Under the pieces are notes generated by a model. It worked only from the letters and a program-made list of their open reading frames with translations. It was not told the DNA's origin and ran no database searches. Below, in pieces: positions 3,370-43,081 of a stretch of DNA of 64,000 nucleotides. The position numbers and the translations under genes were made by a program. Positions within the stretch are counted from its first letter, which is position 1. The number at the start of each line of letters is the position of its first letter. The DNA is from Arenicellales bacterium (GTDB taxonomy: Bacteria > Pseudomonadota > Gammaproteobacteria > Arenicellales > Poriferihabitantaceae): assembly GCA_965116335.1 (NCBI GenBank), contig OZ220677.1:922846-986845 (forward strand), written 5' to 3'.

Positions 3370-3441
3370 GGCGCCGAACCCGTATCGATGCGCGGTACGC
3401 GCCGGATAAACCTGTGATCAACCGGACAACGGCATACCCGC

Positions 3442-9092: not shown

Positions 9093-9147
9093 GTTTCAGC
9101 CTCTTTTTTCCATGTACGGAATACGTCAGGGCATATCCTGACGATAA

Positions 9148-9390
9148 TCACTGGAGCTTAAGGAATCTCGTGGCGGCCAGAAGCATGATAACAAGTGTTG
9201 GCACGGCGCCGATTATGCCCACCAAAACCCATACCTTGATTTTCTGCACATCCTCCTTGCTTGCAAGATGGCCAACCTTTTCTTCAAGTCGCGCCAGCCG
9301 TTCGCGAATATCATCGCCCCCGCCATTCCCGCCCGAACTTTTAACCGTCCTGAGTGGCACAACATTATCTTGTCCATGTTGATCACTCAT
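9148..9390 (-). CDS. small coiled-coil protein with C-terminal TM helix (80 aa), unknown function
   Basis: Internal ATG (MSDQHGQDN...) overlaps the stop of the upstream gene (AATGAGTGA). Gly-rich linker, RERLARLEEKVGHL coiled coil, then hydrophobic VWVLVGIIGAVPTLVIMLLAA. Confidence 0.55.
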   Translation of the reverse strand: MSDQHGQDNVVPLRTVKSSGGNGGGDDIRERLARLEEKVGHLASKEDVQKIKVWVLVGIIGAVPTLVIMLLAATRFLKLQ

Positions 9391-9670
9391 TAGACCAAAC
9401 ATCCATTTGTTGCCACAGGGCGCCCGTATCATATCCAGAGTAGTCATGTATCTGGACAACAACCCCAAGATTAGCGTTTTCACCAACCTTACCCGCCATA
9501 TTCAGAGCTTCGGCAATACCAGCAGGGGTTTTATCAATCGGAGCGGTGACTATCCACAATGGCGATTCCCTGTTACCCAATGCAATATGACGATTATTAA
9601 AATGCTCATCAAGCAGTCCTTCTACCCGCTCCTTGTACGCATCCTGTGGAGACACCAGAAACAGTTTCAT
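9383..9670 (-). CDS. hypothetical protein (95 aa)
   Basis: Intact ORF, translationally coupled to the next gene, in an AT-rich island. No motif I recognise. Confidence 0.45.
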   Translation of the reverse strand: MKLFLVSPQDAYKERVEGLLDEHFNNRHIALGNRESPLWIVTAPIDKTPAGIAEALNMAGKVGENANLGVVVQIHDYSGYDTGALWQQMDVWSNE

Positions 9671-9825
9671 TTAATAAACCCGTAATTTTTTTGGAACATG
9701 AATGGATAATCCTTAATCTTTGTTGCTCAATCCAATCATACAAACCAGCCGGAGTAAAAGCAATGACAAATAGAGTCTCCAATTCCACGACAGAGGAGTT
9801 ATGGGGGGATGAGAACGGTTGGTTA

Positions 9826-12800
9826 TTACATATTTCTACGGTATTGGCCGCCGACTTCGTAGAGGGCCTGAGATATTTCTCCCAGTGAGCAGGTGCGTAC
9901 TGCCTGCATCAGTTGTTCGAAGATGTTGCGGTTGTCGATGGCGGCTTGCCGGACCGCTTGCAGGGCGGTCTGTGAGGTGTCGCGGTGAGTCGCCTTGAAT
10001 TGTCGTAGCCGTTTTATCTGGCTGCGTTTCTCCTGTTCGGTGGAGCGGGACAGTCCGATGGAAGTGGTCTGTGGTTGCGGGTCGGGATTGATGAAGGTAT
10101 TGACTCCGATGACGGGTAGCGTGCCTTCGTGCTTACGGTGCTCGTAGTGCATGGATTGCTCCTGGATGCAGCTTCTCTGGTAGCCGGTTTCCATCGCGCC
10201 GAGTACGCCGCCGCGCTCGGAAATTCTCTCGAACTCGCTCAATACGGCTTCTTCCAGCAGGTCGGTCAACTCCTCTATGATGAAACTGCCCTGGTTGGAG
10301 TTCTCATTCATCGCCAGCCCCCATTCGCGGTTGATGATCAACTGGATCGCCAGCGCGCGGCGCACCGATTCGTCGGTCGGGGTGGTAATCGCTTCATCGT
10401 AGGCGTTGGTATGCAGGCTGTTGCAGTTATCGTAAATGGCGATTAGCGCCTGCAGGGTGGTGCGGATGTCGTTGAAATCAATCTCCTGGGCATGCAGGGA
10501 GCGCCCCGAAGTCTGGATATGGTATTTCAATTTCTGCGAACGTTCATTGGCGCCGTAACGCTCTCGCATCGCGACCGCCCATATCCGCCGGGCGACCCGT
10601 CCCATGACAGTGTATTCCGGGCACATTCCATTGCTGAAAAAGAACGAGAGATTGGGCGCGAAATCATCAATGTCCATGCCCCGCGCCAGCCAGGCCTCGA
10701 CGTAGGTGAAGCCATTGGCCAGGGTGAACGCCAGTTGGCTGATCGGGTTGGCGCCGGCTTCCGCGATATGATAACCGGAGATCGAGACCGAGTAGAAATT
10801 GCGGATCCGATGTTGGGTGAAGTACTGCTGTACGTCGCCCATCAGCCGCAGGGAAAATTCGGTCGAGAAGATGCAGGTATTCTGCCCCTGATCTTCCTTC
10901 AGGATGTCAGCCTGTACGGTGCCGCGGACACTGGCCAGCGCGTCGGCGCGAACCTGTGCCGCCTCCCGCCCGTCCGGGGGCATGCCTTCGCGCTCGGTGA
11001 ACGCCTGCTGGCGTTGGTCGATGGCGACATTCAGGAACATCGCCAGGATGATCGGTGCGGGGCCGTTGATGGTCATGGAAACCGATGTCGCCGGGTCGCA
11101 CAGATCGAAGCCATCATATAGTACTCTCATGTCTTCCAGCGTGGCGATGGACACTCCGGAATTACCAACCTTGCCGTAAATATCCGGACGTTCATCCGGG
11201 TCGCAACCGTACAGAGTCACGGAATCGAAGGCAGTGGATAGTCTTTTGGCGCGGGAATGTTCCGACAGGTCGTGGAAGCGGCGATTGGTATTGAAGGCAT
11301 CCCCTCCCCCGGCGAACATCCGGGTCGGGTCTTCACCGTCTCGCTTGAACGGGAAAACTCCGGCAGTAAACGGGAACCGGCCCGGCAGATTATCGAGCAG
11401 CATCCAACGGGCCAGCTCGCCGTGATCGGCGAATTTCGGCAGGGCCACTCTGGGGATGTCCGTACCCGACAGGGTTTTCCTTTTCAACGGATTGTGGATT
11501 TGGCGGTCGCGGATGGTGACCACATATTCATCCCGGGAGAAATCTGTTACGTCCTGCGACCATTGTTGCAGCGCGGCTTGCAGTTGCGGGTCAAGCCGGG
11601 CCTTGCGCTCTTCAATCAGTCGGTCAAGGGTCGTGGTTTGCGCCGTATCTGTTGAACCCTCCACCTCACCAGCCTCCACCTGCAACATGGATCGAGTGGA
11701 TTCCAGTTGTTGAATCTCGCGCGCGGTGGTGGCCTGCGCGGTAGCCCGTTGCCGGTAGCCGCGCACCGTATCGGCAATCTCGGCGAGATAACGTTGTCGG
11801 CTCTCGGGGATAATCCGGTTGTGGTCGGTCGAGATGCGGATATTGACCGCGGGCAGTCGGCTGTGTTCGCATTGCAGGCCGTGCGCCTTGAGCTGGGCGA
11901 GGACCTCCTGATAGAGTGCGGTCACGCCATCATCGTTGAAGCGCGAGGCGATGGCTCCGAATACCGGCATGTCCTCGGGACGGGCACTGAACGCTTCGCG
12001 GTTGCGCTGCACCTGTCGGGCGACATCGCGCCAGGCATCCTCGGCACCCCTGCGGTCAAACTTGTTGATCGCCACAATATCAGCGAAGTCCAGCATATCT
12101 ATTTTTTCCAGCTGGGACTGCGCCCCGAACTCCGGGGTCATTACATACAATGCACAATCCACCAGGGCTGAAATGCCGGTATCGCCCTGCCCGATGCCCG
12201 GTGTCTCGACGATCACCAGATCGAATCCGGCATCCTGACACCGATCAATCATCGCACCGATGCAGTCGGGAACTTCTCTGGTACTGTCGCGGGTGGCGAT
12301 GGAACGCATAAAAATGTTGGGGTGATTCACTGCATTCATGCGGATACGGTCGCCGAGCAGGGCACCGCCGCTCTTACGCCGGGTCGGGTCGACCGCCAGG
12401 ATGGCGATTTTCAGCGAGTCCGCCAGATCCATACGGAATCTTAAAATCAGCTCATCGGTCAACGAGGACTTGCCAGCACCGCCGGTGCCGGTAATACCGA
12501 GAACCGGCGCCTTGCGGCCTGATTGCGCTGCACTTCTGGTCGCGCCCGGTACACGGTTGCGGTTGCCTGCGCCTGTGCCATCCTGGATTGCCGACAGGGT
12601 GCGAGACAATGCGGTGATGGTGGCGTTGTTGGCCAGGGCTTGTGGAGTCTGTGAGGCGACCGGTTCAGGCAGGCTCTGTCTGAGGTGGGCGGTAGTGGTC
12701 TCGATGATGTCGTCGATGATGCCGCCGAGTCCCATCTGTTGGCCGTCTTCGGGCGTATAGATACGAGTCACGCCGGAGGCTTCGAGCAGGGCTTTCTCCT

Positions 12801-13312: not shown

Positions 13313-14278
13313 ATGGATATATCAGGAACACAGGTCAATTTACTGGTTGACCCTTGTTTGTCTGACGACCAAAAAGCAAGAAAAACGCATTGGGTTATCG
13401 CCCGGGACTGCCGTGACTACATGGGCTCCATGGGAGATAGCAGCGTATCCTTGATTGTAACCGACCCCCCATACTTTATTGATGGTATGGGAGACGATTG
13501 GAACCACGAAGCTCTTGGACGCCGGATGAGGCCGGGCGGCGTGGTTGGGTCTTTGCCTGTCGGGATGAAATTCGATGTGCATCAGGGCACGAAACTGCAA
13601 GGATTCCTGAAACCGATTGCACAGGAGTGGATGAGACTGATCAAGCCCGGAGGGTTTGTTCTGTGCTTTTCCCAGAACCGGCTGGTTCATCACACAGCTA
13701 TGGCAATCGAGTCAGCCGGTTTCGAGATTCGGGACGTTCTTGCATGGCGATACGAAGGCCAGGCAAAGGCATTCACCCAGGAACATTTTGTCCGCAAGCG
13801 AAACATCCCGGAATCTGAAAAGAAAAGGCTGATTAAAAAACTGGGAGGCAGGAAAACCCCACAATTAAAACCGCAGTGTGAACTAATTGTGATGGGGCAG
13901 GCACCACGTGACGGGACATTTGTAGATAACTGGGATAAGTGGGAAACAGGCCTGATTGACCCGAAACAACCATTGATCGAACCGGGCCGATTCCCCGGCA
14001 CGGTGATACCCGTACCAAAACCCCGCGAGAGGCACGGACATATAACGGCGAAACCGGTTGATCTTCTTCGTCACCTGATTCGTGTTTTCTCACCGGAAAG
14101 CGCATTGGTTTTTGATCCATTTGCGGGGTCAGGCTCAACCGGAGTCGCCGCTCGCATGGAGAACAGAGACTTTGTTGGCACTGAGATAGATCAAGCAATG
14201 GCGAAGAGAGCAGAAAAACGTATCGAGATGATTATGCCTTTGATAGCAAGGGACGAGTTCACGCAGTGGCGAGCGTGA
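13313..14278 (+). CDS. orphan DNA methyltransferase (beta-class N6A/N4C, PF01555-like)
   Basis: LIVTDPPYFIDG (motif IV) then VFDPFAGSGSTGVAA (motif I). No adjacent nuclease; flanked by icmF and an acyl-CoA dehydrogenase. Confidence 0.85.
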   Translation: MDISGTQVNLLVDPCLSDDQKARKTHWVIARDCRDYMGSMGDSSVSLIVTDPPYFIDGMGDDWNHEALGRRMRPGGVVGSLPVGMKFDVHQGTKLQGFLKPIAQEWMRLIKPGGFVLCFSQNRLVHHTAMAIESAGFEIRDVLAWRYEGQAKAFTQEHFVRKRNIPESEKKRLIKKLGGRKTPQLKPQCELIVMGQAPRDGTFVDNWDKWETGLIDPKQPLIEPGRFPGTVIPVPKPRERHGHITAKPVDLLRHLIRVFSPESALVFDPFAGSGSTGVAARMENRDFVGTEIDQAMAKRAEKRIEMIMPLIARDEFTQWRA

Positions 14279-21769: not shown

Positions 21770-22048
21770 ATGATTAAAAACTTTAAACACAAAGGTCTGA
21801 AGAAGTTTTTTGAAAGTGGCAGTAATGCAGGCATTCAGGCGTCGCACGGTACCAAAATTCGGGATCGACTTACTTTTCTGCATACGGCTGTCTGCATTGA
21901 AGATATGAACCTCCCCGGTTATCGATTGCATGAATTGAAGGGGAAGCTGGCTGGTCACTGGGCAATCGATATCAGTGGTAACTGGAGAATATCATTCAAG
22001 TTTGAACGAGGTGACGCTTACGACGTCAATTACGAGGACTATCACTGA
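21770..22048 (+). CDS. higB: HigB-type toxin (RelE/ParE superfamily, plasmid maintenance system killer family)
   Basis: MIKNFKHKGLKKFFESGS...GNWRISFKFERGDAYDVNYEDYH, 92 aa. The 220-aa track ORF is an artefactual N-terminal extension antisense to cimA. Confidence 0.85.
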   Translation: MIKNFKHKGLKKFFESGSNAGIQASHGTKIRDRLTFLHTAVCIEDMNLPGYRLHELKGKLAGHWAIDISGNWRISFKFERGDAYDVNYEDYH

Positions 22049-22392
22049 TGACTATTCAACAATTCAACCCTCCGCATCCGGGTGGCTTGATCAAGCGGAC
22101 CTACATTGAGCCATTTCCAGATGTTACTGCGGCAGGTATTGCGCGCGAACTCGGTGTTTCCAAAAGTACTTTTAGTCGTTTACTCTCCGGGAAGTCTGAC
22201 ATTTCTCCAGAGATGGCGGTGAGGCTGTCGACGGTATTAGGTCGATCTGCTGAAAGCTGGCTGGCGCTGCAAGACAATCATGATTTGTGGAAAACCCGGC
22301 AGTCAGTGAATACCGATGGGCTGCAAAGGATTCAGTTCAAACAACCGGAAAGAGCAAGGCCGCGCCACGAGGAGGAGTCCGCCAGCGTGTGA
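22048..22392 (+). CDS. higA: HigA-type antitoxin (XRE-family HTH)
   Basis: HPGGLIKRTYIEPF...TAAGIARELGVSKSTFSRLLSGKSDISPEMAVRLS. TGATG overlap with higB. Confidence 0.85.
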   Translation: MTIQQFNPPHPGGLIKRTYIEPFPDVTAAGIARELGVSKSTFSRLLSGKSDISPEMAVRLSTVLGRSAESWLALQDNHDLWKTRQSVNTDGLQRIQFKQPERARPRHEEESASV

Positions 22393-22399
22393 AATGAAG

Positions 22400-25300
22400 T
22401 CAGTCCGTGTTGTCAACTTCGAGCACGATCCTGAGGTCTTCAATATGGGTGTCAAAAAAGTAAACGTTGACCGGCTGGTCGGCGAGTGTCAGTTCCAATT
22501 CACTGCCATTCAGGGTCAGGAACCTGTCCTTCAACTCGTCCTTCGAACCGTTGGCATGCCTGAACATCGCCGCATGATTCGGGCATAGAATGAGGTAGTT
22601 CTGGTAGTGGTGTCTCTCCAGATCCGGGAGAAACTCAACGGCCTCGAAAAAGTAGCTTCCATCAGCCAACCTGAAGGGGAGGCGACCCTTGCACACCTGA
22701 CAGATGGTCACGCCGGCGTTGGTATACATATCCCGCAGATAGGGATTGGTCTTTTCTCTTTTGATCGGGTCGCGATTGACAGACACGGACCGCTCACGCT
22801 TCTCGCTCGTGCGTTCAGGCGCTTCCCCGGCTTCCTTCCGAACCTTCTCCGCTCTTCGGTCACGGTTTCCGGGTGCACGGGTGGGGAGGTCGACAGGTTC
22901 TGCGTTCTCCGCAAGGATTCTCTGTCGGGTCTCTGGAGACAGCGCGGCAAATTGTCTTCCGTGGTCGAGCGCAGCCTCGTCTGGAAAGCCGAGTTCGGCG
23001 GCGATCTCCTGCTTTCTGCGGTGCTGTTCGATACGGTTTTTGGTTTCGGTGCCGAAGCGGATGGCGGTGAGCCAGGCCCATCCGGGATCGAACGGGAATC
23101 CATCCGGCAGGAGGTCTCTCGAAGCTTCAGCGGGGCGAACGAATACATCGTCCCCCTGAGGAACCCAAGCAGTGTTCCGCAACTGGTGAGCGAGCTGAGA
23201 ATCGGCGGAACGAGGGGCGTTCGACTGGTTGTATTGAAATATGGCCTTCCAGATGCTCTCGTCTTGTTGATTCCAGACAAGACGGGAAAGAGTCTCCTGT
23301 CGTTGCGCTGATAGTAACGGGTTGGAAAAGGTATTCCAGACAAGACGGGAAAGAGCTATGGTCGGTATTTCGAACAAAGATTCGAACCCGGGAATTACGA
23401 AGTCACGGTTTATTCCAGTATGCGTGAAGGAAGCTCCCGGAGCACCATGCAAGTACTCTTTTGCTGGATTGTTGGCGCAGGTGATAACCGCAATAATTTT
23501 GAGGCAGTCGGCTACACCGCACATTCGGGCGAATTGGATAAGTTTCTCCCGCAGGTCGAAGGTCTGGTAGCTGTCGGACAAGGCCGCGCGGTCCGATTCG
23601 GAGCCGAGGGATCGGTAGTAGACTTCCAATCCGGTTTCGAGATAAGGGGAGTCGAGGTACAGGTCGTTGGGCTTGGACCAGAGTCTGTCGGCTCGCTGCA
23701 ATATGAAATAGTCCTTGAAGAGGGAGCTTACGTTCCTGTCCTTCCTGTCCTTTTCGAAGAGCGCAATGAAACGTCTCAGGTCGGATTCATGGGTCTCCCA
23801 TGGCGGGACGTTGGCGGGGTCGGCGTATCGTGTTTTGAGAATGGACTCAACCTGCTCGAACTCACCAATCTCCCGGACGCCGATGCCCCCCAGGAAACTC
23901 CTGGCACCAGTCTGTTCCGACTTGGTTCCACCGCCCGTGTAAGTGTCTTCCGCAACGCGGGGATGAATGGGATCTTCACGAATCTCCGGGGTCGGGAAAT
24001 AGCATTCGCCTCCTGTCCTGTATTCGCCGTCCGAAAGTCTGACGATACAGATTTCATCGAACTGATCGATGTCGTCGCTTCCCAGTTCCCGATAAAAGAG
24101 GGCATACAATGCCCGGTGCCACTCTGCCGGTTTCCGGCGTATCCAGTCAAGAAACGGCTCATCGGGACCCTGCTCCTCCCCGAAACAGCCCCGGGGTTTA
24201 TTGGAGAACCGCTTGTCCAGTGCTTCCACGAACTGTTCGACTCCCCAAGGCTTGATGTCGAGGCCATTCAGGAATCGGTCAACCTCAGTGCTTCGTCGTG
24301 TCGCGGCTACCGCCCAGTCGCGCGGGACATCGTCGCTATCAATCAGAAAACGGATATCCTCGTGATCCAGCAAGACCTTCAGTCCGGCCTCCGCCTGCAG
24401 CAATTGATTGGCTGGAGCATGGCCGCCGGTGTGTGTCGGCGTAAGAGGTCGCTCGTTCATTTCGTCAACAATGGCGTCACGTATCGGCGTATACGGAGGT
24501 GGGATTGTGTCCTCGCTATTCGGCAGCACAGCCAGAAACTCCCGGTCAAGCAGGCCGAGGTCGCGGATTGATGACAGCGATTCGGCTGCAAGTCTGGCGA
24601 GTTGTGCGAAGAGTGGTGCGTTTGCTGGCGTGTCCTTGATACTGGAGCGGCTGAGTTCCGGGACGAAGGGCGCATGGAGATGGAATCGCAGGTTTGAAGT
24701 CTCCTTTGCGGCCGTGAAGTAGACCGCAACATGTCCGCGTTCGGCCGGAACAATCCGAAACTGCCTGGAGAGGGGCGAGTGCGTGTCCAACTGAACGTCC
24801 CCGGACAGCTGTTTGAGTTCGAAGGCGATGGCAATGTGCTGACATTCCATCTCATCAACCGGTTCGGTGAAGCGAAGGAAGTGGGAACTTTCGGTCGGCC
24901 TGCCGTCGATCTCCCGAAGAATCTCAATGTGGTGATCCGAATGCAGATTCTGGAGCAGGAGTCCTTCCTGGCCACCGTCTATCCACCACTGGATCTCTTT
25001 AATATTGGACAGGAACAACAGGGTGTTGTCAGAAATATCCTCCAGCCCGTCCCGCACTTCCAAGAGAGCCTGAGCTTGTGGCTTCCTCCCGGAGTCGAAC
25101 GGAAACTCGAACCGCGTGTGACCGTTCAGGGCCGGGTTCGGTGGGATTTCCGACGGGAGTACCATTTCGGAAATCTTGAAGGCGAAGCTCGGCGACCAGA
25201 TGCGAGGTGAAGCCGTGTAGAGGAAGGCCGCCTTGAAGCCGATTCCGAAGCGACCGATTGTATCACTATCATCTTTTGTGCTGAATCCTATACCTGTAAT

Positions 25301-25543
25301 GGCTCTAACGTCTTTATAGTCGAACGGTCTCCCGTTATGTTCAAACGTCAAGCAAGTGTTAAAGAGACGAAAGTTTACTTCCGTTGCTTCTGCATCTTCA
25401 GCATTTTGTAGTAGTTCGTAAATGAAATGTGCTTTATCCGGATAAAAGTCATCGAATAAATCCAAGTTGATGTCGCCTTCATTGACCGCAAGGCCATCCA
25501 AGAATTTTTTTCGTTTTTCTCTTAGGGTCTCAAAAAAATTCAC
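22400..25543 (-). CDS. sacsin/MORC-like GHKL ATPase with C-terminal HNH-like (CxxC...HH..N..CPNH) nuclease module, 1047 aa
   Basis: N-terminal ELLQNAEDA (25391..25417), EHNGRPF, GRFGIGFKAAF form a Bergerat fold. C-terminal CQVCKGRLPF...ERHHYQNYLILCPNHAAMF (22574..22702). GTG start overlaps the stop of the upstream SNF2 gene (GTGA). Confidence 0.75.
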   Translation of the reverse strand: MNFFETLREKRKKFLDGLAVNEGDINLDLFDDFYPDKAHFIYELLQNAEDAEATEVNFRLFNTCLTFEHNGRPFDYKDVRAITGIGFSTKDDSDTIGRFGIGFKAAFLYTASPRIWSPSFAFKISEMVLPSEIPPNPALNGHTRFEFPFDSGRKPQAQALLEVRDGLEDISDNTLLFLSNIKEIQWWIDGGQEGLLLQNLHSDHHIEILREIDGRPTESSHFLRFTEPVDEMECQHIAIAFELKQLSGDVQLDTHSPLSRQFRIVPAERGHVAVYFTAAKETSNLRFHLHAPFVPELSRSSIKDTPANAPLFAQLARLAAESLSSIRDLGLLDREFLAVLPNSEDTIPPPYTPIRDAIVDEMNERPLTPTHTGGHAPANQLLQAEAGLKVLLDHEDIRFLIDSDDVPRDWAVAATRRSTEVDRFLNGLDIKPWGVEQFVEALDKRFSNKPRGCFGEEQGPDEPFLDWIRRKPAEWHRALYALFYRELGSDDIDQFDEICIVRLSDGEYRTGGECYFPTPEIREDPIHPRVAEDTYTGGGTKSEQTGARSFLGGIGVREIGEFEQVESILKTRYADPANVPPWETHESDLRRFIALFEKDRKDRNVSSLFKDYFILQRADRLWSKPNDLYLDSPYLETGLEVYYRSLGSESDRAALSDSYQTFDLREKLIQFARMCGVADCLKIIAVITCANNPAKEYLHGAPGASFTHTGINRDFVIPGFESLFEIPTIALSRLVWNTFSNPLLSAQRQETLSRLVWNQQDESIWKAIFQYNQSNAPRSADSQLAHQLRNTAWVPQGDDVFVRPAEASRDLLPDGFPFDPGWAWLTAIRFGTETKNRIEQHRRKQEIAAELGFPDEAALDHGRQFAALSPETRQRILAENAEPVDLPTRAPGNRDRRAEKVRKEAGEAPERTSEKRERSVSVNRDPIKREKTNPYLRDMYTNAGVTICQVCKGRLPFRLADGSYFFEAVEFLPDLERHHYQNYLILCPNHAAMFRHANGSKDELKDRFLTLNGSELELTLADQPVNVYFFDTHIEDLRIVLEVDNTD
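22422..22442. repeat. left copy of a perfect 21-nt direct repeat AGCACGATCCTGAGGTCTTCA
   Basis: Identical 21-mer at 29749..29769, checked base by base. This copy lies within the last ~14 codons of the GHKL-HNH gene. Confidence 0.9.
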
Positions 25544-28500
25544 TGAACTGAATCCGTTGTAATTTTCAAAGTTCCTTGAACAACTAGGGTAGCGTGGATG
25601 TCGGCACTTTCCGCCAGCCTTTCCAACTCGGCAATCCGGCTCTCATAGTCATAGTTCGCACGCGCCAATTCGCTTTCCTTCATCCGACGAATCTTGTCGT
25701 TTGTCGCGGCTCCGACCTGGCCCTCCAACAACTTGCATCGGGCCCCGTGGCTGGTTCTCAAGCTTTGCCGCCGGTGGTGAACGAGTTCCCGGTTCTCCGC
25801 CACATGATTTGCGCGTGCTGCACGCCATTTGCCGTGGTGCCGCTTATCAAGGCGTTCAATCGCGACTTCGTCAAGCAATGTGCCGTCGGGCGTGTCCACT
25901 GCAACTTCCAACAGGGACATCACCGCGCTGTCCAATTCGGGGTTCTCGGTGACGGACACCAGCGTGTCATCGGATCGAATACCGACATTGCGCCACTGGT
26001 AGAGGGCGAACGGATATTCACCCGGTGGGACAGTTTCGCTTGATGCGATCAGACTGACCTGCACCGCTTGGGAGCGTTTCAGGTGCCGCGCCGCCTGCCT
26101 GAGCAGTGGATGCAGAACGTTGAGATAGACGGCCTTCGGCTCGGCGGCAGCGGCTTCCTGGTCGAAGGTGACCGGCAGCAACGGGTCCGCGCCTCTGAGC
26201 CACTTTTCCCATTGCCGGGCGACCGGATCGGTGGATCGCGGCTGGCCCCGGAAGTCAGCGAGTAGCCTGGCCCGGATATTCTGGCCGAGGCGCAGAGTCT
26301 TAAGAGGTTTGTCGCCGAGCAGAAAATCGCCGTCAGTCTCCGACACGCCCGACAGATAAATGGTAACGCATCGTTGCAGTGCCTCGGCGGACAACCAGAA
26401 GCTCTCAGCCTCCGCGATCTCCTTGCGCCACGACTGGTTTGGAACCGTCAGGCCGAACAGTTCGGCTTGCTTTTCCTCTAACGCTGTCTCTTCCTGAACC
26501 TGGCGGATCTTGTTGTCACCTAGTTGCTGCAGGCGCTCGGCACGCTGTTCCGCCGTCAGCATGAAGCTGTCGGCAATATTGTGAATCTCCCGGGTGATCT
26601 CGCCGAGAATTTCTTCGCTACCGCCGACCGCGTGATGGAATACACCGATGCGCATCAGACAGCGTTCGTAGATGTCCGCGTCGACCGTGCCGGGCGTCAC
26701 CAGGTTGACGATGGCGACGCTCTCGCTCTGCTGGCCGTAGCGATCGATACGCCCGATACGTTGTTCGATACGCATGGGGTTCCACGGCAGATCGTAGTTA
26801 ATTAACAGGTCACAGAACTGGAAGTCAAGCCCTTCGCCGCCGACCTCCGAGGAAAGCAAAACATCCAGCGCCTCCGGGTCGTCCTTCGGCGAAGCGAATC
26901 GGCGGCGCAACTCGGCACGCTGGTCGTCCGGAACGCCGCCGTGCACGAGACCGTAGCGCAAGCCCGCATCCGCGACGTGTTTCTCGATATAGGCGAGTGT
27001 GTGCCGAAAAGTGCTGAAGGCAAGCGCCTTGTTGTTGTCCATCCGACCCTTGTCCCGCAGTACGCTGATGAATACCTGCACCTTGGGGTCGAAGGAATCG
27101 AGATCGTCGGCATGCTCCAGGAGCATCTCGACATCGGTTCGTATCTCGGCAAGAAAATCAGCATCGATGGGAGTCTCGCCATCGGTCCCGTCTGTCGTTT
27201 CAAGACTGTCGAGCTTTCCGACAAGCATATCGCGCAATAGTGGCGCCAGTCCGTAAAGGCAGCTCGCCGCCTGACGACGGATCGTGGTCATCATGAACTT
27301 GACGTTCTGCTCGCCATGGGCACGCGCCAGAATGCGGCTTACCACATTGAGGAGGTCATCATGCAGTCGGCGCTGGTCGGGCGTGAACTCGACCGTCAGC
27401 GTTTCTGGCCGACGGGTCGTGAACTCCCCGATATCCCGGCGGCGAGTCCGGTTAATCATCGGACTGAAGGTATAGAGTTCCTCCAGAGACCGGATGATGC
27501 GAATACGGCTGGCGTCGTCGATATGCTCCTCCGCCAGACGATCATAGATGTCCTGAAACGCTGGCGATTCTCGCAGGAAAAGGAGACCCCACTCGGTCTG
27601 TGCGGCTTGCCCCAAGCATTTGCGGGCTTCGGCCTGCCAGCGATCTCCTTCCGCACGGCAATGGCCCACGGCTGCGTTAATGAACCCGTTGGGCGCAGCC
27701 ATCTGCTCGAAGCTCGGGCGGTCGATGACGAGGTCCGGCCGCAGTACGTTCAGCAAGGTAAAGAGGTCTTGACTGCCAAGTTGCACCGGGGTGGCGGTGA
27801 GAAAGACGGCGGCCTGGGCGTTGTCGCAGAAATAGCGCACCGCTTGGTGAAGGTAGGTATCCGGGTTGCGAATATGGTGCGCCTCGTCGACGATCACGAG
27901 ATCAAATCTGGGCGGCGGGTCAAGTGCGAGCAGTCCCTGGCTAGCTCGCGCCCCCCTTACCTTCTTGCCAAAAAGCAGATCCGAATCAAACAGGGAGAAC
28001 GGTAGTATAGCCTTGGCATAGCGGTCGGGCCATTCACCCTCCAAGTCCATTTCCCGCAGACAGTGGCGTAGCATTCGACCGTCGAGAGTCTCGAAATGCT
28101 CGTCAAAACGCTTCATCTCCACGAACCACTTGCGCTCGGTAACCAGCGCCTTGGGGCAGATGATCAGCACCGAGGAAATGTCCGTCCGTGCCCGCAACTC
28201 TTTGATGATCAGCCCAGCCTCAATCGTCTTGCCCACGCCCACCTCGTCGGCAATCAGCAGACGAGGTCGGTCGGCCCGGATCAATCTCAAAACGGGGCGA
28301 TACTGATAAGGCACGAAGTGAATGCGCCCGGACCGCAGCGAATACAGGTTAGCGGTGGACGGCGAGAGCAGATGCAGGCTGGTCAGATGGGCGCGTACTT
28401 CGCCAGCACTGAGTAGAGAAGGTTCGTCTGAGGACTCAAGGGGCCGCAGCTGGCTCTCGTAGTAGGTCGCCTGACGATTGTCCTGGAAAACCTGGTAGCG

Positions 28501-29160
28501 TGCCTCGGCGGCACTGTCCATGACTCCAATGATCGGCACCACAATGCCGGGGTCGGAACGCAACGCCACGAGGTTACCGACCTTGAATATCGTCGTTGCT
28601 GCCTGTGAAGAGACAGCAGAAATTTCGCGGTCGCTCGGTGCCGTAATCGAATCAGCGGTATTGTCAGGATGGAGCGAGGAAGTCTGGGGGGCGTCGGACG
28701 GCACCGTCATGTCGGAAAGAGCATCTCTCTTAAACGCTTCGACCGTCGCGACGGAGGCAGGCGTGGCGCCAAGCATATCCAGAACACGAGCAAGTGTGTC
28801 GACATCCCGGTAAAGGTCTTCAGCCCGGACTGGCGACACCGACAGGTGCGCCCATTGATTGCGAACGGCTTGCAGCTCCCTGACCAAAGTGCGTCCCTCG
28901 CGCGGCAGATTGAGCACCTGCGAGAGTTCGTACCAATTCTGGTCCAGGATTCGCAACAGGGCAGCAAAATCTAACTGTTCCAGCTTGGTGAGCCCACGTT
29001 CCTCCACGGTACGCTGCTGTTGGAAGCTCAGACGGTTCGCGACATACGTTTTCCACCAGCCCTCGCCAAGAGTGGACAGGTGAGTCGCAAGAAAAGCGGC
29101 AAGCTCGACAGTTGCGATGCGAATCAGTTCATGCATGAAGTGAAGAGCCGTTGACAACAC
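25540..29160 (-). CDS. SNF2-family helicase with N-terminal HEPN (Swt1-like, RNQWAH) domain, 1206 aa
   Basis: RNQWAH at aa 100-105 (28846..28863). DEVGVGKT (motif I), VIVDEAHHIRN (II), LLSSEVGGEGLDFQ (V), QRIGRIDRYGQ (VI). ~300-aa C-terminal extension. GTG start at 29160; alternative ATG at 29136. Confidence 0.8.
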   Translation of the reverse strand: MLSTALHFMHELIRIATVELAAFLATHLSTLGEGWWKTYVANRLSFQQQRTVEERGLTKLEQLDFAALLRILDQNWYELSQVLNLPREGRTLVRELQAVRNQWAHLSVSPVRAEDLYRDVDTLARVLDMLGATPASVATVEAFKRDALSDMTVPSDAPQTSSLHPDNTADSITAPSDREISAVSSQAATTIFKVGNLVALRSDPGIVVPIIGVMDSAAEARYQVFQDNRQATYYESQLRPLESSDEPSLLSAGEVRAHLTSLHLLSPSTANLYSLRSGRIHFVPYQYRPVLRLIRADRPRLLIADEVGVGKTIEAGLIIKELRARTDISSVLIICPKALVTERKWFVEMKRFDEHFETLDGRMLRHCLREMDLEGEWPDRYAKAILPFSLFDSDLLFGKKVRGARASQGLLALDPPPRFDLVIVDEAHHIRNPDTYLHQAVRYFCDNAQAAVFLTATPVQLGSQDLFTLLNVLRPDLVIDRPSFEQMAAPNGFINAAVGHCRAEGDRWQAEARKCLGQAAQTEWGLLFLRESPAFQDIYDRLAEEHIDDASRIRIIRSLEELYTFSPMINRTRRRDIGEFTTRRPETLTVEFTPDQRRLHDDLLNVVSRILARAHGEQNVKFMMTTIRRQAASCLYGLAPLLRDMLVGKLDSLETTDGTDGETPIDADFLAEIRTDVEMLLEHADDLDSFDPKVQVFISVLRDKGRMDNNKALAFSTFRHTLAYIEKHVADAGLRYGLVHGGVPDDQRAELRRRFASPKDDPEALDVLLSSEVGGEGLDFQFCDLLINYDLPWNPMRIEQRIGRIDRYGQQSESVAIVNLVTPGTVDADIYERCLMRIGVFHHAVGGSEEILGEITREIHNIADSFMLTAEQRAERLQQLGDNKIRQVQEETALEEKQAELFGLTVPNQSWRKEIAEAESFWLSAEALQRCVTIYLSGVSETDGDFLLGDKPLKTLRLGQNIRARLLADFRGQPRSTDPVARQWEKWLRGADPLLPVTFDQEAAAAEPKAVYLNVLHPLLRQAARHLKRSQAVQVSLIASSETVPPGEYPFALYQWRNVGIRSDDTLVSVTENPELDSAVMSLLEVAVDTPDGTLLDEVAIERLDKRHHGKWRAARANHVAENRELVHHRRQSLRTSHGARCKLLEGQVGAATNDKIRRMKESELARANYDYESRIAELERLAESADIHATLVVQGTLKITTDSVQ

Positions 29161-40761: not shown

Positions 40762-42177
40762 GTTGTCCAATGGAAGATGAGCCTGAAGGATGATCTGTAT
40801 TTCCATCGGGAGATGAGCCTTTCGGCGTTGATTTTGGGATCATCGGAGGATGATCGTGAAATTACACAGCCAGCGTTTACAGACGGTGGAGGAGATTCGT
40901 TCCTTTCTGGACGGAGCCACCACTTTTGATTTTGAACCCCAATCCCGCAAACAAACCTACCGATGGCTCTGTGACAGCTTGCGGCAGGTACGGTATTCCT
41001 TGCTCAACAAGACCGACCGGGGGATCGTCAAGACCTATCTGGAAAAGGTCAGTGGCTTGTCCCGCGCACAGGTCACCCGGTTGATCCGACAGTATCGCGA
41101 CAGTGGATGTATCCAGGATCGTCGGGGAAGACCCGCTAACGCTTTCTCCCAGCGCTATACGTCAGCAGATGTCGCTTTGTTGGTTCAAACCGATACCCTG
41201 CACGGCAACCTGTCCGGACCCGCTACCCGAAAACTGTGCGAACGCGCCTTTCTGGTATTCGGCGATACCCGATACGCGCGACTGGCTACAATCTCCAACG
41301 GCCACCTCTATAACCTGCGACACTCGGATGCCTACCAGCGCAAACGACGACACTTCCAGAAAACCCGACCTACTCCAGCAAAAATCGGAGTCAGACGAAT
41401 ACCCAGACCCAATGGCCGACCCGGCTTCTTGCGCGTCGATACCGTACATCAGGGCGACCAGGACGGCATCAAGGGGTTGTATCACATCAATGCCGTCGAT
41501 GAAGTCACCCAGATGCAGGCCATAGTCAGTGTGCAGAGAATCTCTGAAAGCTATCTCATCCCGGCCCTGCATGAATTACTCCAAGCCTTCCCCTTCACTC
41601 TCCTGGGATTCCATTCCGATAACGGTTCAGAGTATATCAATCACACAGTCGCCAAACTATTGCAAAAACTCCATATCGAACAAACCAAATCACGACCCAG
41701 ACAGAGTAATGACAATGCCCTGGTCGAAGGCAAAAATGGTTCCGTCATCCGTAAGCATCTGGGATACGAACACATCTCACAGCACTTCGCTCAACCCGTC
41801 AATGACTTCCTGGTTCATGTACTCACTCCCTACCTCAACTACCACAGACCCTGCCTGTTCGCAAAGGAAGAAATCAACCAAAAAGGAAAACGAATCCGTA
41901 AATACCCGCACTCACTCATTCAGACTCCTTACGAAAAACTCCGATCCTTACCCAATGCACAACAATATCTCAAACCAGGAGTAACCTTCAAAAAACTGGA
42001 TGACTTCGCTCACCAATACAGCGATAATGAAGCCGCAAAAAGACTCAACGAAGCACGCAATACACTATTCCAATCTTTTAACAATTCCCAAAATTACGCC
42101 GCCTGAAAAACTCTCTCAATGTCTAGAAATATAATCACAATAGACAACACGCTCAGGCTCATCTCTGGATTGGAAAA
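40762..42177 (+). mobile_element. insertion sequence (~1.4 kb) with imperfect ~26-bp terminal inverted repeats
   Basis: Left end GTTGTCCAATGGAAGATGAGCCTGA vs reverse complement of the right end GTTTTCCAATCCAGAGATGAGCCTGA. Core AGATGAGCCTGA at 40775..40786 and 42152..42163. Single rve transposase inside. Exact ends approximate. Confidence 0.7.
40850..42106 (+). CDS. DDE transposase / integrase catalytic core (rve domain)
   Basis: 418 aa. DTVHQGD...FHSDNGSEYIN...NALVEGKNG are the spaced D, D, E residues. N-terminal HTH-like region. Confidence 0.8.
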   Translation: MIVKLHSQRLQTVEEIRSFLDGATTFDFEPQSRKQTYRWLCDSLRQVRYSLLNKTDRGIVKTYLEKVSGLSRAQVTRLIRQYRDSGCIQDRRGRPANAFSQRYTSADVALLVQTDTLHGNLSGPATRKLCERAFLVFGDTRYARLATISNGHLYNLRHSDAYQRKRRHFQKTRPTPAKIGVRRIPRPNGRPGFLRVDTVHQGDQDGIKGLYHINAVDEVTQMQAIVSVQRISESYLIPALHELLQAFPFTLLGFHSDNGSEYINHTVAKLLQKLHIEQTKSRPRQSNDNALVEGKNGSVIRKHLGYEHISQHFAQPVNDFLVHVLTPYLNYHRPCLFAKEEINQKGKRIRKYPHSLIQTPYEKLRSLPNAQQYLKPGVTFKKLDDFAHQYSDNEAAKRLNEARNTLFQSFNNSQNYAA

Positions 42178-42196
42178 CGCTCCCGGATTCCCACCC

Positions 42197-42250
42197 GGAT
42201 TCCCGGCTGGCCGGGTTGGTCGGGGTTTTATCCAGTCCGGGATAATGGCC
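42197..42250. repeat. repeated GC-rich element (copy B), abutting the IS right end
   Basis: 22-nt identity with 39945..39966 plus the shared CCAGTCCGGGA block. Shorter than copy A (internal deletion). Confidence 0.65.
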
Positions 42251-42255
42251 GCGCC

Positions 42256-42359
42256 GGTCGATTGCTCAACCTGGCCGCGCTCGATGCTGGCCGGGGTTCC
42301 CGTGATCCGGATGCTGTCCTGGACATGGACAGCCGGGCCAGTATTCGATAGTGTTTATT
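42256..42359 (-). pseudogene. decayed copy of the RHH regulator gene (internal deletions, start codon lost)
   Basis: 42256..42286 matches 44171..44201 at 30/31 nt (encodes IERGQ.EQST). AATAAACAC near 42351 matches codons 2-4 of the intact gene, but ATG is replaced by CA. Confidence 0.55.
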
Positions 42360-43045: not shown

Positions 43046-43081
43046 TCCCCCGTGATTATTTATTGATAACGCGCTATTAAA

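What the first reader, a model, noticed from the sequence alone, without database searches (positions are those of the whole stretch)
22574..25417. Sacsin/MORC-like GHKL ATPase carrying a C-terminal HNH-like zinc-finger nuclease module
The N-box ELLQNAEDA (25391..25417) with GRFGIGFKAAF is the sacsin/MORC flavour of the Bergerat fold, not MutL, GyrB or a histidine kinase.

The last ~100 aa contain C948-x2-C951 ... H978-H979-x2-N982 ... C987-P-N-H990 (22574..22702). This has the spacing of a beta-beta-alpha-Me HNH finger.

A dimerising ATP-driven clamp with a terminal nickase/nuclease is reminiscent of MutL-type licensed nucleases, but here it is paired with an SNF2 motor. The ~800 residues in between have no motif I can assign and may hold the target-recognition function.
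Basis: partly seen in the sequence, partly recalled or inferred. Interest (0 to 1): 0.6.

Follow-up and report, generated by a model that had tools for sequence, protein, structure and literature searches.

The report
Sacsin-type ATPase with dead HNH domain
A large bacterial ATPase of the sacsin type ends in a zinc-binding domain descended from an HNH nuclease that has lost the residues needed to cut DNA, and it almost always sits next to an SNF2 motor gene as a probable, uncharacterised two-gene anti-phage cassette.

Summary
The N-terminus is a sacsin-type GHKL ATPase with conserved catalytic motifs.

The C-terminus (aa ~926-1047) does have an HNH fold. Its closest solved relative is EcoKMcrA (profile E=2.4e-6; Foldseek probability 1.00).

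The nuclease reading does not hold.
- C948, C951, C987 and H990 form a structural zinc site. Position 990 is Cys in 120 and His in 23 of 145 divergent relatives.
- The positions matching McrA's four catalytic residues are V969, E970, A991 and R995. None is a conserved His or Asn.

This dead-HNH core is nevertheless the best-conserved part of the protein.

The gene overlaps by 4 nt an upstream HEPN(Swt1-type)-SNF2 gene. A close SNF2 partner lies next to it in 67 of 75 informative loci from many phyla. In 9 loci the pair is joined to a type III R-M operon.

The N-terminal ~800 aa resemble Tiamat's TmtA. Relatives carry DUF3883 or an intact HNH at the C-terminus instead.

Best reading: a two-motor defence cassette in which the dead HNH binds DNA, dimerises or docks the partner, while the effector (HEPN RNase or type III Res) is supplied in trans. 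It is a new variant of a known kind.

The parts
22400..25543 (-). Gene for the 1047-aa sacsin-type GHKL ATPase with a C-terminal HNH-derived zinc module (stop codon included)
   Evidence: ORF list and translation. There are 2468 homologues, and the top 120 are almost all about 1030 aa and start at the same position.
24794..25456 (-). GHKL (Bergerat-fold) ATPase domain, aa ~30-250, sacsin type
   Evidence: Pfam SACS 53.3 bits (cut-off 32.8) and HATPase_c_3. NCBIfam NF047352 91.2 bits (cut-off 50). phmmer to sacsin SR1 5v45, E=4e-8. Foldseek top hits are sacsin SR1 (E=2.4e-7, prob 1.0), then MutL, topo II and Hsp90.
25391..25417 (-). GHKL motif I / N-box ELLQNAEDA (E43 catalytic base, N47 Mg ligand by analogy with other GHKL ATPases)
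   Evidence: Coordinates. E43, Q46, N47, A48 and D50 are at least 95% conserved in 67 divergent full-length representatives.
25223..25255 (-). G2 box / ATP-lid hinge GRFGIGFKAAF
   Evidence: Coordinates. G97, G100, G102, F103 and K104 are at least 95% conserved. The preceding loop 87-101 has low confidence in the AF2 model, as expected for a mobile lid.
24620..24718 (-). Highly conserved loop aa 276-308 (K280, E281, R299, N308), modelled as disordered. Candidate transducer or gamma-phosphate sensor loop (inference).
   Evidence: Invariant columns in A1 and A4. R299 and N308 are at least 95% conserved. pLDDT is below 50 for 268-301.
22769..24619 (-). Unassigned, mostly helical middle region, aa 309-925. 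It is shared with TmtA profiles to about aa 800 and ends in a charged linker.
   Evidence: No Pfam hit at E<=10. No PDB hit with a divergent profile. PADLOC TmtA profiles align up to aa ~807. The conserved residues are almost all aromatic or hydrophobic.
22544..22768 (-). HNH-derived (beta-beta-alpha-Me fold) zinc module, aa 926-1000. Zinc ligands are C948, C951, C987 and H990. Catalytic-equivalent positions are V969, E970, A991 and R995.
   Evidence: Profile vs PDB hits EcoKMcrA 6ghc at E=2.4e-6. AF2 model pLDDT 91, pTM 0.84. Foldseek 6ghc_A prob 1.00, then Cap5 and Cas9 HNH. Column statistics. McrA catalytic residues from PMC6182155.
22403..22543 (-). C-terminal extension, aa 1001-1047 (helix, beta-hairpin, helix) with near-invariant H1033 and mostly conserved D1036. 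It has no counterpart in McrA.
   Evidence: Secondary structure. H1033 is His in 144/146 and D1036 is Asp in 134/146.
25540..29160 (-). Partner gene: 1206-aa HEPN(Swt1-like)-SNF2 helicase (DrmD-like). Its stop codon overlaps the GHKL start (GTGA).
   Evidence: Pfam HEPN_Swt1, SNF2-rel_dom and Helicase_C. PADLOC DrmD PDLC02623 at 1.4e-108. NCBIfam DrmD 303 bits, below the 610 cut-off. A close homologue abuts the GHKL gene in 60 of 75 loci and is nearby in 7 more.
28774..29103 (-). Swt1-like HEPN domain of the partner (aa 20-129). The Rx4H motif RNQWAH is at aa 100-105 (28846..28863).
   Evidence: Pfam PF18731 at 7.9e-17. R100 is conserved in 49/50, N101 in 50/50 and H105 in 49/50 HEPN-bearing loci.
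26581..28335 (-). SNF2 ATPase core of the partner (aa ~276-860). Walker A GVGKT, DEAH and the QRIGRIDRYGQ motif are intact.
   Evidence: Translation. Pfam ResIII, SNF2-rel_dom and Helicase_C.

Best explanation
The gene is the second cistron of a two-gene, two-motor cassette that most likely defends the cell against phages or other mobile DNA.

Gene 1 encodes an SNF2 DNA translocase. In about three quarters of abutting partners it carries an N-terminal Swt1-type HEPN RNase domain with an intact Rx4H motif.

Gene 2, the finding, encodes a sacsin-type GHKL ATPase. It has a catalytically competent-looking ATP site, a large non-enzymatic helical body shared with Tiamat's TmtA, and a C-terminal module descended from a zinc-stabilised HNH nuclease.

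That module keeps the HNH fold and the structural CCC(C/H) zinc site. It has lost the nucleophile-activating His and all three active-site metal ligands, so it is not a canonical nuclease. Because it is the best-conserved segment of the protein, I infer that it acts as a DNA-binding, dimerising or partner-docking element. McrA dimerises through its HNH domain, and GHKL clamps need a constitutive C-terminal dimer interface.

Proposed cycle (inferred): the GHKL dimer closes on DNA, or on the SNF2 partner, under ATP control. SNF2 translocation then senses or remodels foreign DNA. Killing or restriction is done by an effector supplied in trans: the HEPN RNase fused to SNF2, or a type III Mod/Res pair in the operon-embedded variants.

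Shown: the fold, the zinc-ligand behaviour, the loss of catalytic residues, conservation of both ATPase sites and of the HEPN motif, the gene coupling, and the defence-gene context.

Inferred: the defence function, the role of the dead HNH, and the order of events.
For: - Fold: a C-terminal profile hits the EcoKMcrA HNH domain at E=2.4e-6. The AF2 model has pLDDT 91. Foldseek's top hit is 6ghc at prob 1.00, followed by Cap5 and Cas9 HNH domains.
- Catalytic loss: McrA H228, H229, H252 and H256 are each essential (PMC6182155). They align to V969, E970, A991 and R995. The same register appears against an intact HNH_2 domain of a Halorubrum sacsin-GHKL protein. In 145 representatives these columns are V/I, E, A/S and K/Q/R.
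- Zinc site: C948, C951 and C987 are invariant, and position 990 toggles between Cys (120) and His (23).
- Selection: aa 951-1000 is the best-conserved block of the protein.
- ATPase: motif I and the G2 box are at least 95% conserved, and the fold matches sacsin SR1, MutL and Hsp90.
- Pairing: the genes overlap by 4 nt. A close SNF2 partner abuts in 60 of 75 loci and is nearby in 7 more, across many phyla. No third gene recurs in more than 9 loci.
- Defence context: the pair shares an operon with type III Mod/Res in 9 loci. PDC-S68 is adjacent in 7 loci. TIR-APAZ/pAgo lies downstream in L017, an ABC-three-component system next to the Rhizobium plasmid copy, and HigBA next to the window copy.
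- Relatives: TmtA (Tiamat) profiles match aa 30 to ~800 at E down to 2e-51.
- HEPN: RNxWAH is conserved in 49/50 HEPN-bearing partners.
- Phages: the family is practically absent from phage genomes, with 1 partial hit in 50,697 records.
Against: - No experiment exists for this family, and the defence role rests on gene context.
- About a quarter of the abutting partners (14 of 60) lack HEPN, and those loci contain no recognisable nuclease. The core pair must therefore work without a fused effector, or it has an unrecognised one.
- E967, E970, H1033 and D1036 are strongly conserved polar residues in and beside the former active site, and I could not inspect model coordinates.
- No methyltransferase accompanies the two-gene form, so how it tells self from non-self is unexplained.
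- The dimerisation role of the dead HNH is an analogy with McrA. It was not tested.
Confidence: 0.55

Rival explanations
1. The C-terminal module is an active HNH nickase or nuclease whose cutting is licensed by the ATP-driven GHKL clamp, as in MutL, and it works together with the SNF2 motor. A non-canonical version would use a rebuilt site made of E967, E970, H979, H1033 and D1036.
For: The module has a genuine HNH fold and an intact structural zinc site. The wider superfamily does pair sacsin-type GHKL domains with C-terminal nuclease domains: DUF3883 in TmtA-like plasmid proteins, and an intact HNH_2 in Halorubrum WP_008580622.1. E970 (139/144), H1033 (144/146), E967 and D1036 are highly conserved. 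HEPN-less two-gene loci have no other recognisable nuclease.
Against: All four McrA catalytic positions are occupied by V/I, E, A/S and K/Q/R, and no conserved His, Asn or Asp sits at either canonical metal-ligand position. Pfam HNH models give no hit even at E<=10. A whole clade with intact partners has E970 replaced by Gln, and other members have D1036 replaced by Ala, Gly or Asn. These changes occur independently, which is not how an obligatory catalytic set behaves.
Confidence: 0.1
2. A toxin-regulator (abortive-infection) pair. The HEPN RNase on the SNF2 protein is the toxin, and the sacsin/Hsp90-like ATPase is a chaperone-like regulator that holds it inactive until infection. The dead HNH serves only as the docking domain.
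For: The HEPN Rx4H motif is intact and conserved. The genes are translationally coupled. The ATPase is of the sacsin/Hsp90 type. An AbiJ-type HEPN gene appears in the type III variants. HEPN domains are frequent toxins in defence systems (PMC3710099).
Against: HEPN is missing in 14 of 60 abutting partners, so it is not part of the invariant core. The SNF2 motor and the DNA-nuclease-derived fold point to DNA, not protein, as the ligand. In 9 loci the pair is wired to a DNA-cutting type III R-M.
Confidence: 0.15
3. Not a defence system. The pair is a housekeeping DNA-remodelling or repair module, for example one that resolves stalled transcription or replication complexes, like RapA/Mfd-type SNF2 proteins working with a MutL-like clamp.
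For: In the window the pair lies between ordinary metabolic genes (leuA-like, glpD-like) with no composition anomaly. The partner also shows similarity to RapA (NCBIfam 184 bits, below cut-off).
Against: The family is patchily distributed across many phyla, and neighbouring genes are not conserved. It occurs on plasmids. It is repeatedly fused into type III R-M operons and sits beside other defence genes. It carries a HEPN RNase domain. Its closest HMM relatives are the defence proteins TmtA and DrmD.
Confidence: 0.12

Closest known systems
Tiamat defence system protein TmtA (PADLOC models PDLC03964-03972)
   Same: A sacsin-type GHKL ATPase followed by the same large helical body. Nine TmtA profiles match, the best at E=2.3e-51, and alignments run from aa ~30 to ~800. 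The orthologue in L017 behaves the same way.
   Different: TmtA profiles are 1063-1782 positions long, and only their N-terminal third to half is matched. More distant GHKL relatives on plasmids are annotated as DUF3883 proteins, whereas this family ends in a dead HNH and has no DUF3883 hit. From my own recollection, not checked here, Tiamat is a single-gene system. This protein is almost always coupled to an SNF2 gene.
Prokaryotic MORC/paraMORC GHKL-S5 ATPases in restriction-modification operons (Iyer, Abhiman & Aravind 2008, PMC2292703)
   Same: A GHKL ATPase encoded with SWI2/SNF2 helicases and, in some operons, HNH nucleases or type III R-M genes. The predicted role is ATP-driven DNA manipulation that assists restriction.
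   Different: That paper does not mention sacsin-type proteins. Here the GHKL domain is sacsin-type. The HNH is fused to the ATPase, not a separate gene, and it is catalytically dead. No Morc S5 Pfam hit was found.
EcoKMcrA HNH domain (PDB 6ghc; PMC6182155)
   Same: Closest solved structure of the C-terminal module by sequence profile (E=2.4e-6) and by fold (prob 1.00). The CxxC...CxxC/H zinc site and beta-beta-alpha topology are shared. The McrA HNH domain is also its dimerisation domain (abstract).
   Different: McrA H228, H229, H252 and H256, each essential for cleavage, are V, E, A and R here. This module has an extra ~50-aa C-terminal extension. The N-terminal partner domain is a GHKL ATPase, not a 5mC reader.
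Halorubrum hochsteinianum plasmid protein WP_008580622.1 ('HNH endonuclease', 1561 aa)
   Same: A sacsin-type GHKL N-terminus (Pfam SACS) with a C-terminal zinc-type HNH. The alignment register with the window protein is the same as for McrA.
   Different: Its HNH is recognised by Pfam (HNH_2, 4.4e-11) and keeps the catalytic His residues (EAAHIQP ... LCRLHHWAF). The protein is 500 aa longer, and it sits beside a cytosine methyltransferase and an AAA protein, with no adjacent SNF2 gene.
DISARM SNF2 helicase DrmD
   Same: The partner gene matches a PADLOC DrmD profile nearly end to end (1.4e-108, profile positions 6-889 of 1040). In the type III variants the SNF2 matches another DrmD profile at 3.5e-190.
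   Different: It scores below the NCBIfam DrmD equivalog cut-off (303 vs 610 bits). No third gene family, and so no DrmA, DrmB, DrmC or DrmMI, recurs in more than 9 of 80 loci. The N-terminal HEPN is an additional domain.
Eukaryotic sacsin (SR1 Hsp90-like domain, PDB 5v44-5v47)
   Same: Best sequence and structure match for the ATPase domain. Motif I and the G2 box are nearly identical (ELIQNAEDA / GRFGIGF). Both are functionally linked to a HEPN domain.
   Different: Sacsin is a giant eukaryotic chaperone with three repeats, a DnaJ domain and a HEPN of a different family (HEPN-T; PMC3710099). It has no SNF2 partner and no HNH.
MutL (GHKL clamp with C-terminal endonuclease/dimerisation domain)
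   Same: Overall logic of an N-terminal GHKL ATPase plus a C-terminal nuclease-fold domain that could dimerise. The MutL N-terminal domain is among the top fold matches.
   Different: No MutL Pfam domains were found. The C-terminal fold is HNH, not the MutL endonuclease domain, and the nuclease residues are absent.

Membership tests
GHKL (Bergerat-fold) ATPase superfamily | Motif I (N-box) ExxxNxxD with the catalytic Glu and the Mg-binding Asn | tested here: met
   ELLQNAEDA at aa 43-51. E43, N47 and D50 are at least 95% conserved in 67 divergent representatives.
GHKL (Bergerat-fold) ATPase superfamily | G2 box (GxxGxG) and ATP lid | tested here: met
   GRFGIGFK at aa 97-104, with G97, G100 and G102 at least 95% conserved. 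The lid loop 87-101 is flexible in the model.
GHKL (Bergerat-fold) ATPase superfamily | Bergerat fold in 3D | tested here: met
   Foldseek matches sacsin SR1, MutL N-terminal domain, topo II ATPase, Hsp90 and GRP94, all at prob 1.00 and E down to 2.4e-7.
GHKL (Bergerat-fold) ATPase superfamily | ATP binding and hydrolysis | not testable with these tools
   Needs biochemistry. Only motif conservation is available.
Sacsin-type GHKL domain (Pfam PF25794 / NCBIfam NF047352) | Score above the curated cut-offs | tested here: met
   PF25794 53.3 bits vs 32.8. NF047352 91.2 bits vs 50.
MORC ATPases | MORC-type GHKL plus Morc S5 domain signature | tested here: not met
   Only the generic HATPase_c_3 (26.9 bits) and SACS were found, with no Morc S5 family at E<=0.01. 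No MORC chain appears in the top 50 Foldseek hits.
HNH / beta-beta-alpha-Me nucleases | Beta-beta-alpha fold | tested here: met
   Profile vs EcoKMcrA E=2.4e-6. AF2 pLDDT 91 with strands 967-970 and 983-986 and helix 988-997. Foldseek 6ghc prob 1.00.
HNH / beta-beta-alpha-Me nucleases | Structural zinc site (two CxxC-type knuckles) | tested here: met
   C948, C951 and C987 are invariant, and position 990 is Cys 120 / His 23. Zinc occupancy itself was not tested.
HNH / beta-beta-alpha-Me nucleases | Nucleophile-activating His at the end of strand 1 (McrA H229) | tested here: not met
   The aligned residue is E970. It is Glu in 139/144 representatives, with Q, A, N and one H in the rest.
HNH / beta-beta-alpha-Me nucleases | Active-site metal ligands (McrA H228, H252, H256) | tested here: not met
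   The aligned residues are V969 (V/I/K), A991 (A/S) and R995 (K/Q/R/N).
HNH / beta-beta-alpha-Me nucleases | Match to a curated HNH profile | tested here: not met
   No Pfam family at E<=10 for aa 918-1047 or aa 818-1047.
Tiamat (TmtA) | Near full-length match to a TmtA profile | tested here: not met
   The best hit covers profile positions 70-455 of 1486. The longest covers 206-819 of 1538.
Tiamat (TmtA) | C-terminal DUF3883-type domain | tested here: not met
   No DUF3883 hit. More distant GHKL relatives on plasmids are annotated as DUF3883 proteins.
Tiamat (TmtA) | Single-gene system (from my own recollection of its description, not checked here) | tested here: not met
   An SNF2 partner is adjacent in 74 of 75 informative loci.
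DISARM | DrmA, DrmB and a methyltransferase alongside DrmD | tested here: not met
   Only a DrmD-like SNF2 is present. It is below the NCBIfam cut-off, and no third gene family recurs in more than 9 of 80 loci.
MutL | MutL transducer (DNA_mis_repair) and MutL_C endonuclease domains | tested here: not met
   No such Pfam hits at E<=0.01.
HEPN RNase (partner protein) | Rx4-6H motif | tested here: met
   RNQWAH at aa 100-105 of the partner. R is conserved in 49/50, N in 50/50 and H in 49/50. Pfam HEPN_Swt1 62 bits vs 27.5.

The most novel reading that the evidence does not exclude
The SNF2 + sacsin-GHKL pair is a widespread, so far unnamed defence system (2015 clusters at 50% identity carry the C-terminal module). 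Its most conserved element would be a pseudo-nuclease: an HNH fold that has given up catalysis and been converted into a DNA or DNA-structure sensor, or a dimerisation latch. Through the two ATP motors it would license an effector in trans, either the HEPN RNase or type III Res. In the HEPN-less forms it might block phage DNA without any nuclease at all, as BREX is thought to do.
Probability: 0.3. Interest if true: 0.7.

Novelty: new variant of a known kind. Interest (0 to 1): 0.45.

Why it matters
Proteins of this family were labelled only 'hypothetical protein' wherever a name was given. The family is nevertheless large, spans many phyla, and is tightly coupled to an SNF2 motor, so it is a good candidate for an uncharacterised anti-phage cassette related to Tiamat. 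I found no paper on Tiamat's mechanism in the held library.

The result also corrects a tempting annotation. A motif-level reading, or the fold alone, would label this protein an ATP-licensed HNH nuclease. The catalytic positions say it is not one. A strongly conserved dead HNH would be a clear case of a nuclease fold reused as a binding or assembly module in a GHKL clamp.

The link between a sacsin-type ATPase and a HEPN domain in bacteria also gives a prokaryotic context for the same pairing in eukaryotic sacsin.

Tried and rejected
- Pfam on the C-terminal 130 and 230 aa and on the middle 667 aa at E<=10 found nothing.
- A divergent profile of aa 250-925 against all PDB sequences gave only a chance hit at E=1.3.
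- I looked for an alternative effector domain at the N-terminus of HEPN-less SNF2 partners. Nothing credible turned up; the only hits came from read-through of upstream DNA.
- I tested whether the 176-aa ORF upstream of the Rhizobium plasmid pair is a split-off HEPN. It gave no hit to the HEPN HMM or to Pfam.
- I tested whether the window's own type III R-M (3442..9092) is the same kind as the Mod/Res embedded with GHKL orthologues. The Mod is only about 27% identical and the Res gave no hit, so no specific link exists.
- I looked for a conserved third gene. None occurs in more than 9 of 80 loci.
- I tested a rebuilt catalytic site (E970/H1033/D1036) indirectly through co-loss. The substitutions are independent and are tolerated in intact loci. 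I could not test 3D clustering, because no model coordinates are exposed.
- Look-ups for the source organism and contig returned nothing.
- Promoter and terminator scans were at chance level, and there are no tRNAs in the window.
- Literature searches for TmtA/Tiamat mechanism, bacterial sacsin-like defence proteins, GHKL+SNF2+HEPN systems and inactive HNH domains found no description of this family. PADLOC's Hma system (helicase, m5C methylase, ATPase) was considered, but no HmaC model matched the protein.

Full report
**1. Observation**

Window 22400..25543 on the minus strand is a 1047-codon ORF with a GTG start.
- ELLQNAEDA, aa 43-51 (25391..25417)
- GRFGIGFKAAF, aa 97-107 (25223..25255)
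- CQVC, aa 948-951 (22691..22702)
- HHYQN, aa 978-982 (22598..22612)
- CPNH, aa 987-990 (22574..22585)

The ORF's start codon overlaps the stop codon of a 1206-codon ORF, 25540..29160, on the same strand (GTGA, a 4-nt overlap). The protein is not an orphan. A word-indexed search gave 2468 homologues, and the top 120 are almost all about 1030 aa and start at the same position. An exhaustive HMM search with the C-terminal profile found 2015 clusters at 50% identity.

**2. N-terminal domain**

Pfam SACS (53.3 bits, cut-off 32.8) and HATPase_c_3 match, as does NCBIfam P_loop_sacsin (91.2 bits, cut-off 50). The only significant sequence matches in the PDB are the sacsin SR1 domains (E=4e-8 with aa 1-250). 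That alignment runs through motif I, motif II and the G2 lid.

A full-length AF2 model (pLDDT 79) has sacsin SR1 as its best fold match (E=2.4e-7, prob 1.0). The ATPase domains of MutL, topo II, Hsp90 and GRP94 follow.

In 67 full-length representatives that are 23-47% identical to the window protein, these residues are at least 95% conserved: E43, Q46, N47, A48, D50, G97, G100, G102, F103 and K104. 'Sacsin-type' is supported. 'MORC-like' is not specifically supported.

**3. C-terminal module: fold**

Pfam sees nothing here even at E<=10. However, a profile of 36 divergent C-termini hits the HNH domain of EcoKMcrA (6ghc) at E=2.4e-6.

An AF2 model of aa 922-1047, built on 60 diverse sequences, is confident (pLDDT 91, pTM 0.84). 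It shows a zinc knuckle, two strands (967-970 and 983-986) and a helix (988-997). A helix, a hairpin and a final helix follow.

Foldseek against the PDB returns EcoKMcrA first (prob 1.00), then the HNH domains of Cap5 and Cas9.

**4. C-terminal module: catalysis**

The McrA paper defines H229 as the nucleophile activator, H228, H252 and H256 as the active-site metal ligands, and an Asn (N243 by my numbering of the sequence) as an auxiliary residue. Each His-to-Ala mutant is inactive (PMC6182155).

In the profile alignment (PDB chain index = McrA residue number + 10) these residues correspond as follows:

| McrA residue | Role in McrA | Window residue |
|---|---|---|
| H228 | metal ligand | V969 |
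| H229 | nucleophile activator | E970 |
| N243 | auxiliary Asn | N982 |
| C251 | zinc ligand | H990 |
| H252 | metal ligand | A991 |
| H256 | metal ligand | R995 |

The same register is obtained against an intact, Pfam-recognised HNH_2 domain (EAAHIQP...QN...LCRLHHWAF) at the C-terminus of a Halorubrum plasmid protein. That protein also has a sacsin-type GHKL N-terminus.

Column statistics on 145 representatives that are under 50% identical to one another:

| Position | Residues observed |
|---|---|
| 948, 951, 987 | Cys, essentially invariant |
| 990 | C120 / H23 |
| 969 | V124 / I11 / K6 |
| 970 | E139 of 144 |
| 991 | A115 / S25 |
| 995 | K82 / Q17 / R12 |
| 978 | E118 / R13 / H7 |
| 979 | H91 / Y16 |
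| 982 | Q91 / N30 |

Position 990 behaves as a zinc ligand, so the site is CCCC or CCCH. None of the four catalytic positions is a conserved His, Asn or Asp. The module is an HNH fold without the canonical HNH active site.

It is not decaying, however. Residues 951-1000 form the best-conserved block of the whole protein (mean column identity about 0.70).

**5. An unexplained residue set**

Several other polar residues are nearly invariant: Y940, Q949, E967, E970, H1033 (144/146) and D1036 (134/146). The last two are in the ~50-aa extension, which McrA lacks.

I could not test whether these residues cluster in 3D, because model coordinates are not exposed. As an indirect test I tabulated the exceptions in 459 sequences. 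A whole clade with intact SNF2 partners has E970 replaced by Gln. Other members have D1036 replaced by Ala, Gly or Asn. The two changes occur independently. That is more typical of a binding or structural surface than of an obligatory catalytic set, so I give a rebuilt active site about 10%.

**6. Middle region**

Residues ~250-925 match no Pfam family and no solved structure by profile. PADLOC TmtA (Tiamat) profiles align from aa ~30 to ~800 (best E=2.3e-51), so this body is shared with TmtA.

The positions conserved at 95% or more between aa 310 and 900 are almost all aromatic, hydrophobic, Pro or Gly. The only charged one is R897, and no acidic or His residue is among them. That argues for a scaffold or binding role, not a hidden enzyme.

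A conserved loop at 276-308 (K280, E281, R299, N308) is modelled as disordered. By analogy with other GHKL proteins it may be the sensor loop that contacts ATP. This is an inference.

**7. Partner and context**

The upstream ORF has three recognisable parts:
- a Swt1-like HEPN domain (aa 20-129, motif RNQWAH)
- an SNF2 core with intact GVGKT, DEAH and QRIGRIDRYGQ motifs
- a long C-terminal region

It matches a PADLOC DrmD profile almost end to end (1.4e-108). It stays below NCBIfam's DrmD cut-off (303 vs 610 bits).

I fetched 80 genomic loci from Pseudomonadota, Acidobacteriota, Planctomycetota, Poribacteria, Latescibacterota, Chloroflexota, Actinomycetota, Cloacimonadota and others. Of the 75 with enough upstream sequence:

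| Arrangement | Loci |
|---|---|
| Close SNF2 homologue abutting the GHKL gene, same strand | 60 (46 with HEPN, 14 without) |
| Close SNF2 homologue within ~2 kb | 7 |
| HTH-SNF2, sometimes an AbiJ-type HEPN gene, type III Mod, type III Res, GHKL | 7 |
| No partner found | 1 |

The third architecture is documented. Two sphingomonad loci among the 60 have Mod-Res-HEPN_SNF2-GHKL, which bridges the two architectures.

Where HEPN is present its RNxWAH motif is conserved in 49/50. No third gene family occurs in more than 9 loci.

Neighbouring genes include the PADLOC candidate PDC-S68 in 7 loci, TIR-APAZ with a short pAgo in L017, an ABC-three-component system on a Rhizobium plasmid, and HigBA in the window. 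Full-length copies occur on rhizobial plasmids. The family is practically absent from phage genomes.

**8. How it most likely works**

These points are shown:
- two translationally coupled genes, conserved as a pair
- two intact ATP motors
- an intact HEPN RNase motif in most partners
- an HNH fold with its zinc site kept and its catalytic residues lost, under strong selection
- repeated physical linkage to restriction and other defence genes

These points are inferred:
- The pair is a defence module.
- The GHKL protein acts as an ATP-gated dimeric clamp or sensor.
- The dead HNH supplies DNA binding, the constitutive C-terminal dimer contact, or the docking site for SNF2. McrA dimerises through its HNH domain (abstract).
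- SNF2 translocation probes or remodels invading DNA.
- The effector comes in trans, either the HEPN RNase (abortive-type response) or type III Res.

The HEPN-less two-gene loci show that the core can work without a fused effector. This remains the weakest point of the model. Overall confidence is 0.55. Confidence that the module is HNH-derived and lacks the canonical catalytic residues is about 0.9.

**9. Comparison with what is known**

The kind of system was predicted computationally in 2008: GHKL ATPases with SNF2 or SF2 helicases and HNH or restriction-fold nucleases in R-M-like operons (PMC2292703; PMC3417536). Tiamat's TmtA is the nearest named relative by HMM.

This family fails the membership tests for several named groups:
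- Tiamat: partial profile coverage, no DUF3883, never alone
- DISARM: only a DrmD-like gene
- MORC and MutL: no specific domains
- Active HNH nucleases: no catalytic residues

I found no paper describing this family. Where a source or record named these proteins, it called them 'hypothetical protein'. I rate it a new variant of a known kind.

**10. Verdict**

Interest is 0.45. This is a solid, widespread, uncharacterised candidate defence cassette with a conserved pseudo-nuclease. It belongs to a class that specialists already expect, and it has no experimental support.

Noticed in passing
window 3442..9092 (-): A type III restriction-modification pair: Res (990 aa; ResIII/DEAD) and Mod (898 aa; N6_N4_Mtase). 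The ORFs overlap and lie in a low-GC patch (0.47-0.50 vs about 0.55 elsewhere), which suggests horizontal acquisition. The Mod is only about 27% identical to the Mod genes embedded with GHKL orthologues, and the Res gave no hit.
   Followed up: partly
window 13313..14278 (+): A solitary 321-aa N6/N4 DNA methyltransferase sits among metabolic genes with no adjacent nuclease gene. It may be an orphan methylase.
   Followed up: no
window 21770..22392 (+): A HigB-like toxin (92 aa) and an HTH antitoxin (114 aa) converge on the GHKL gene. Only 7 bp separate the two stop codons.
   Followed up: partly
L012, L015-L018, L020, L070 (about 1..11100); L023 and L024 (1..11030): In these loci, orthologues of the GHKL protein (44-48% identity, same dead-HNH signature) are the last gene of an operon. 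In the first seven the order is HTH-SNF2, sometimes an AbiJ-type HEPN gene, type III Mod, type III Res, GHKL. In the two sphingomonads it is Mod-Res-HEPN_SNF2-GHKL.
   Followed up: yes
L017 10970..14091: A TIR-APAZ gene and a short prokaryotic Argonaute lie immediately downstream of the GHKL gene, which indicates a defence island.
   Followed up: no
L009, L010, L019, L035, L072, L080 (downstream of GHKL); L027 (upstream): A ~1250-aa RecD-like SF1 helicase protein recurs next to the cassette in 7 loci. It matches the PADLOC candidate PDC-S68 end to end (E=0, 1501 bits).
   Followed up: partly
L081 5824..10509 (Halorubrum hochsteinianum plasmid NZ_CP098416.1): A 1561-aa protein, WP_008580622.1, combines a sacsin-type GHKL N-terminus with an intact C-terminal HNH_2 nuclease domain. 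It sits near a DNA cytosine methyltransferase and an AAA protein.
   Followed up: partly
L082 189..3060 (Rhizobium bangladeshense plasmid p2): An annotated ABC-three-component system lies just upstream of the SNF2-GHKL pair. A 176-aa ORF that overlaps the helicase start is not HEPN and matches no Pfam family.
   Followed up: partly
L046-L048, L051-L055, L057, L059, L061, L073, L074, L080 and others: A subset of SNF2 partners lacks the HEPN domain, and their N-termini are about 110-180 aa shorter. These two-gene loci contain no recognisable nuclease.
   Followed up: partly
window 42001..44000: This interval has the strongest negative GC skew in the window (-0.295) together with negative AT skew. 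I did not examine it.
   Followed up: no
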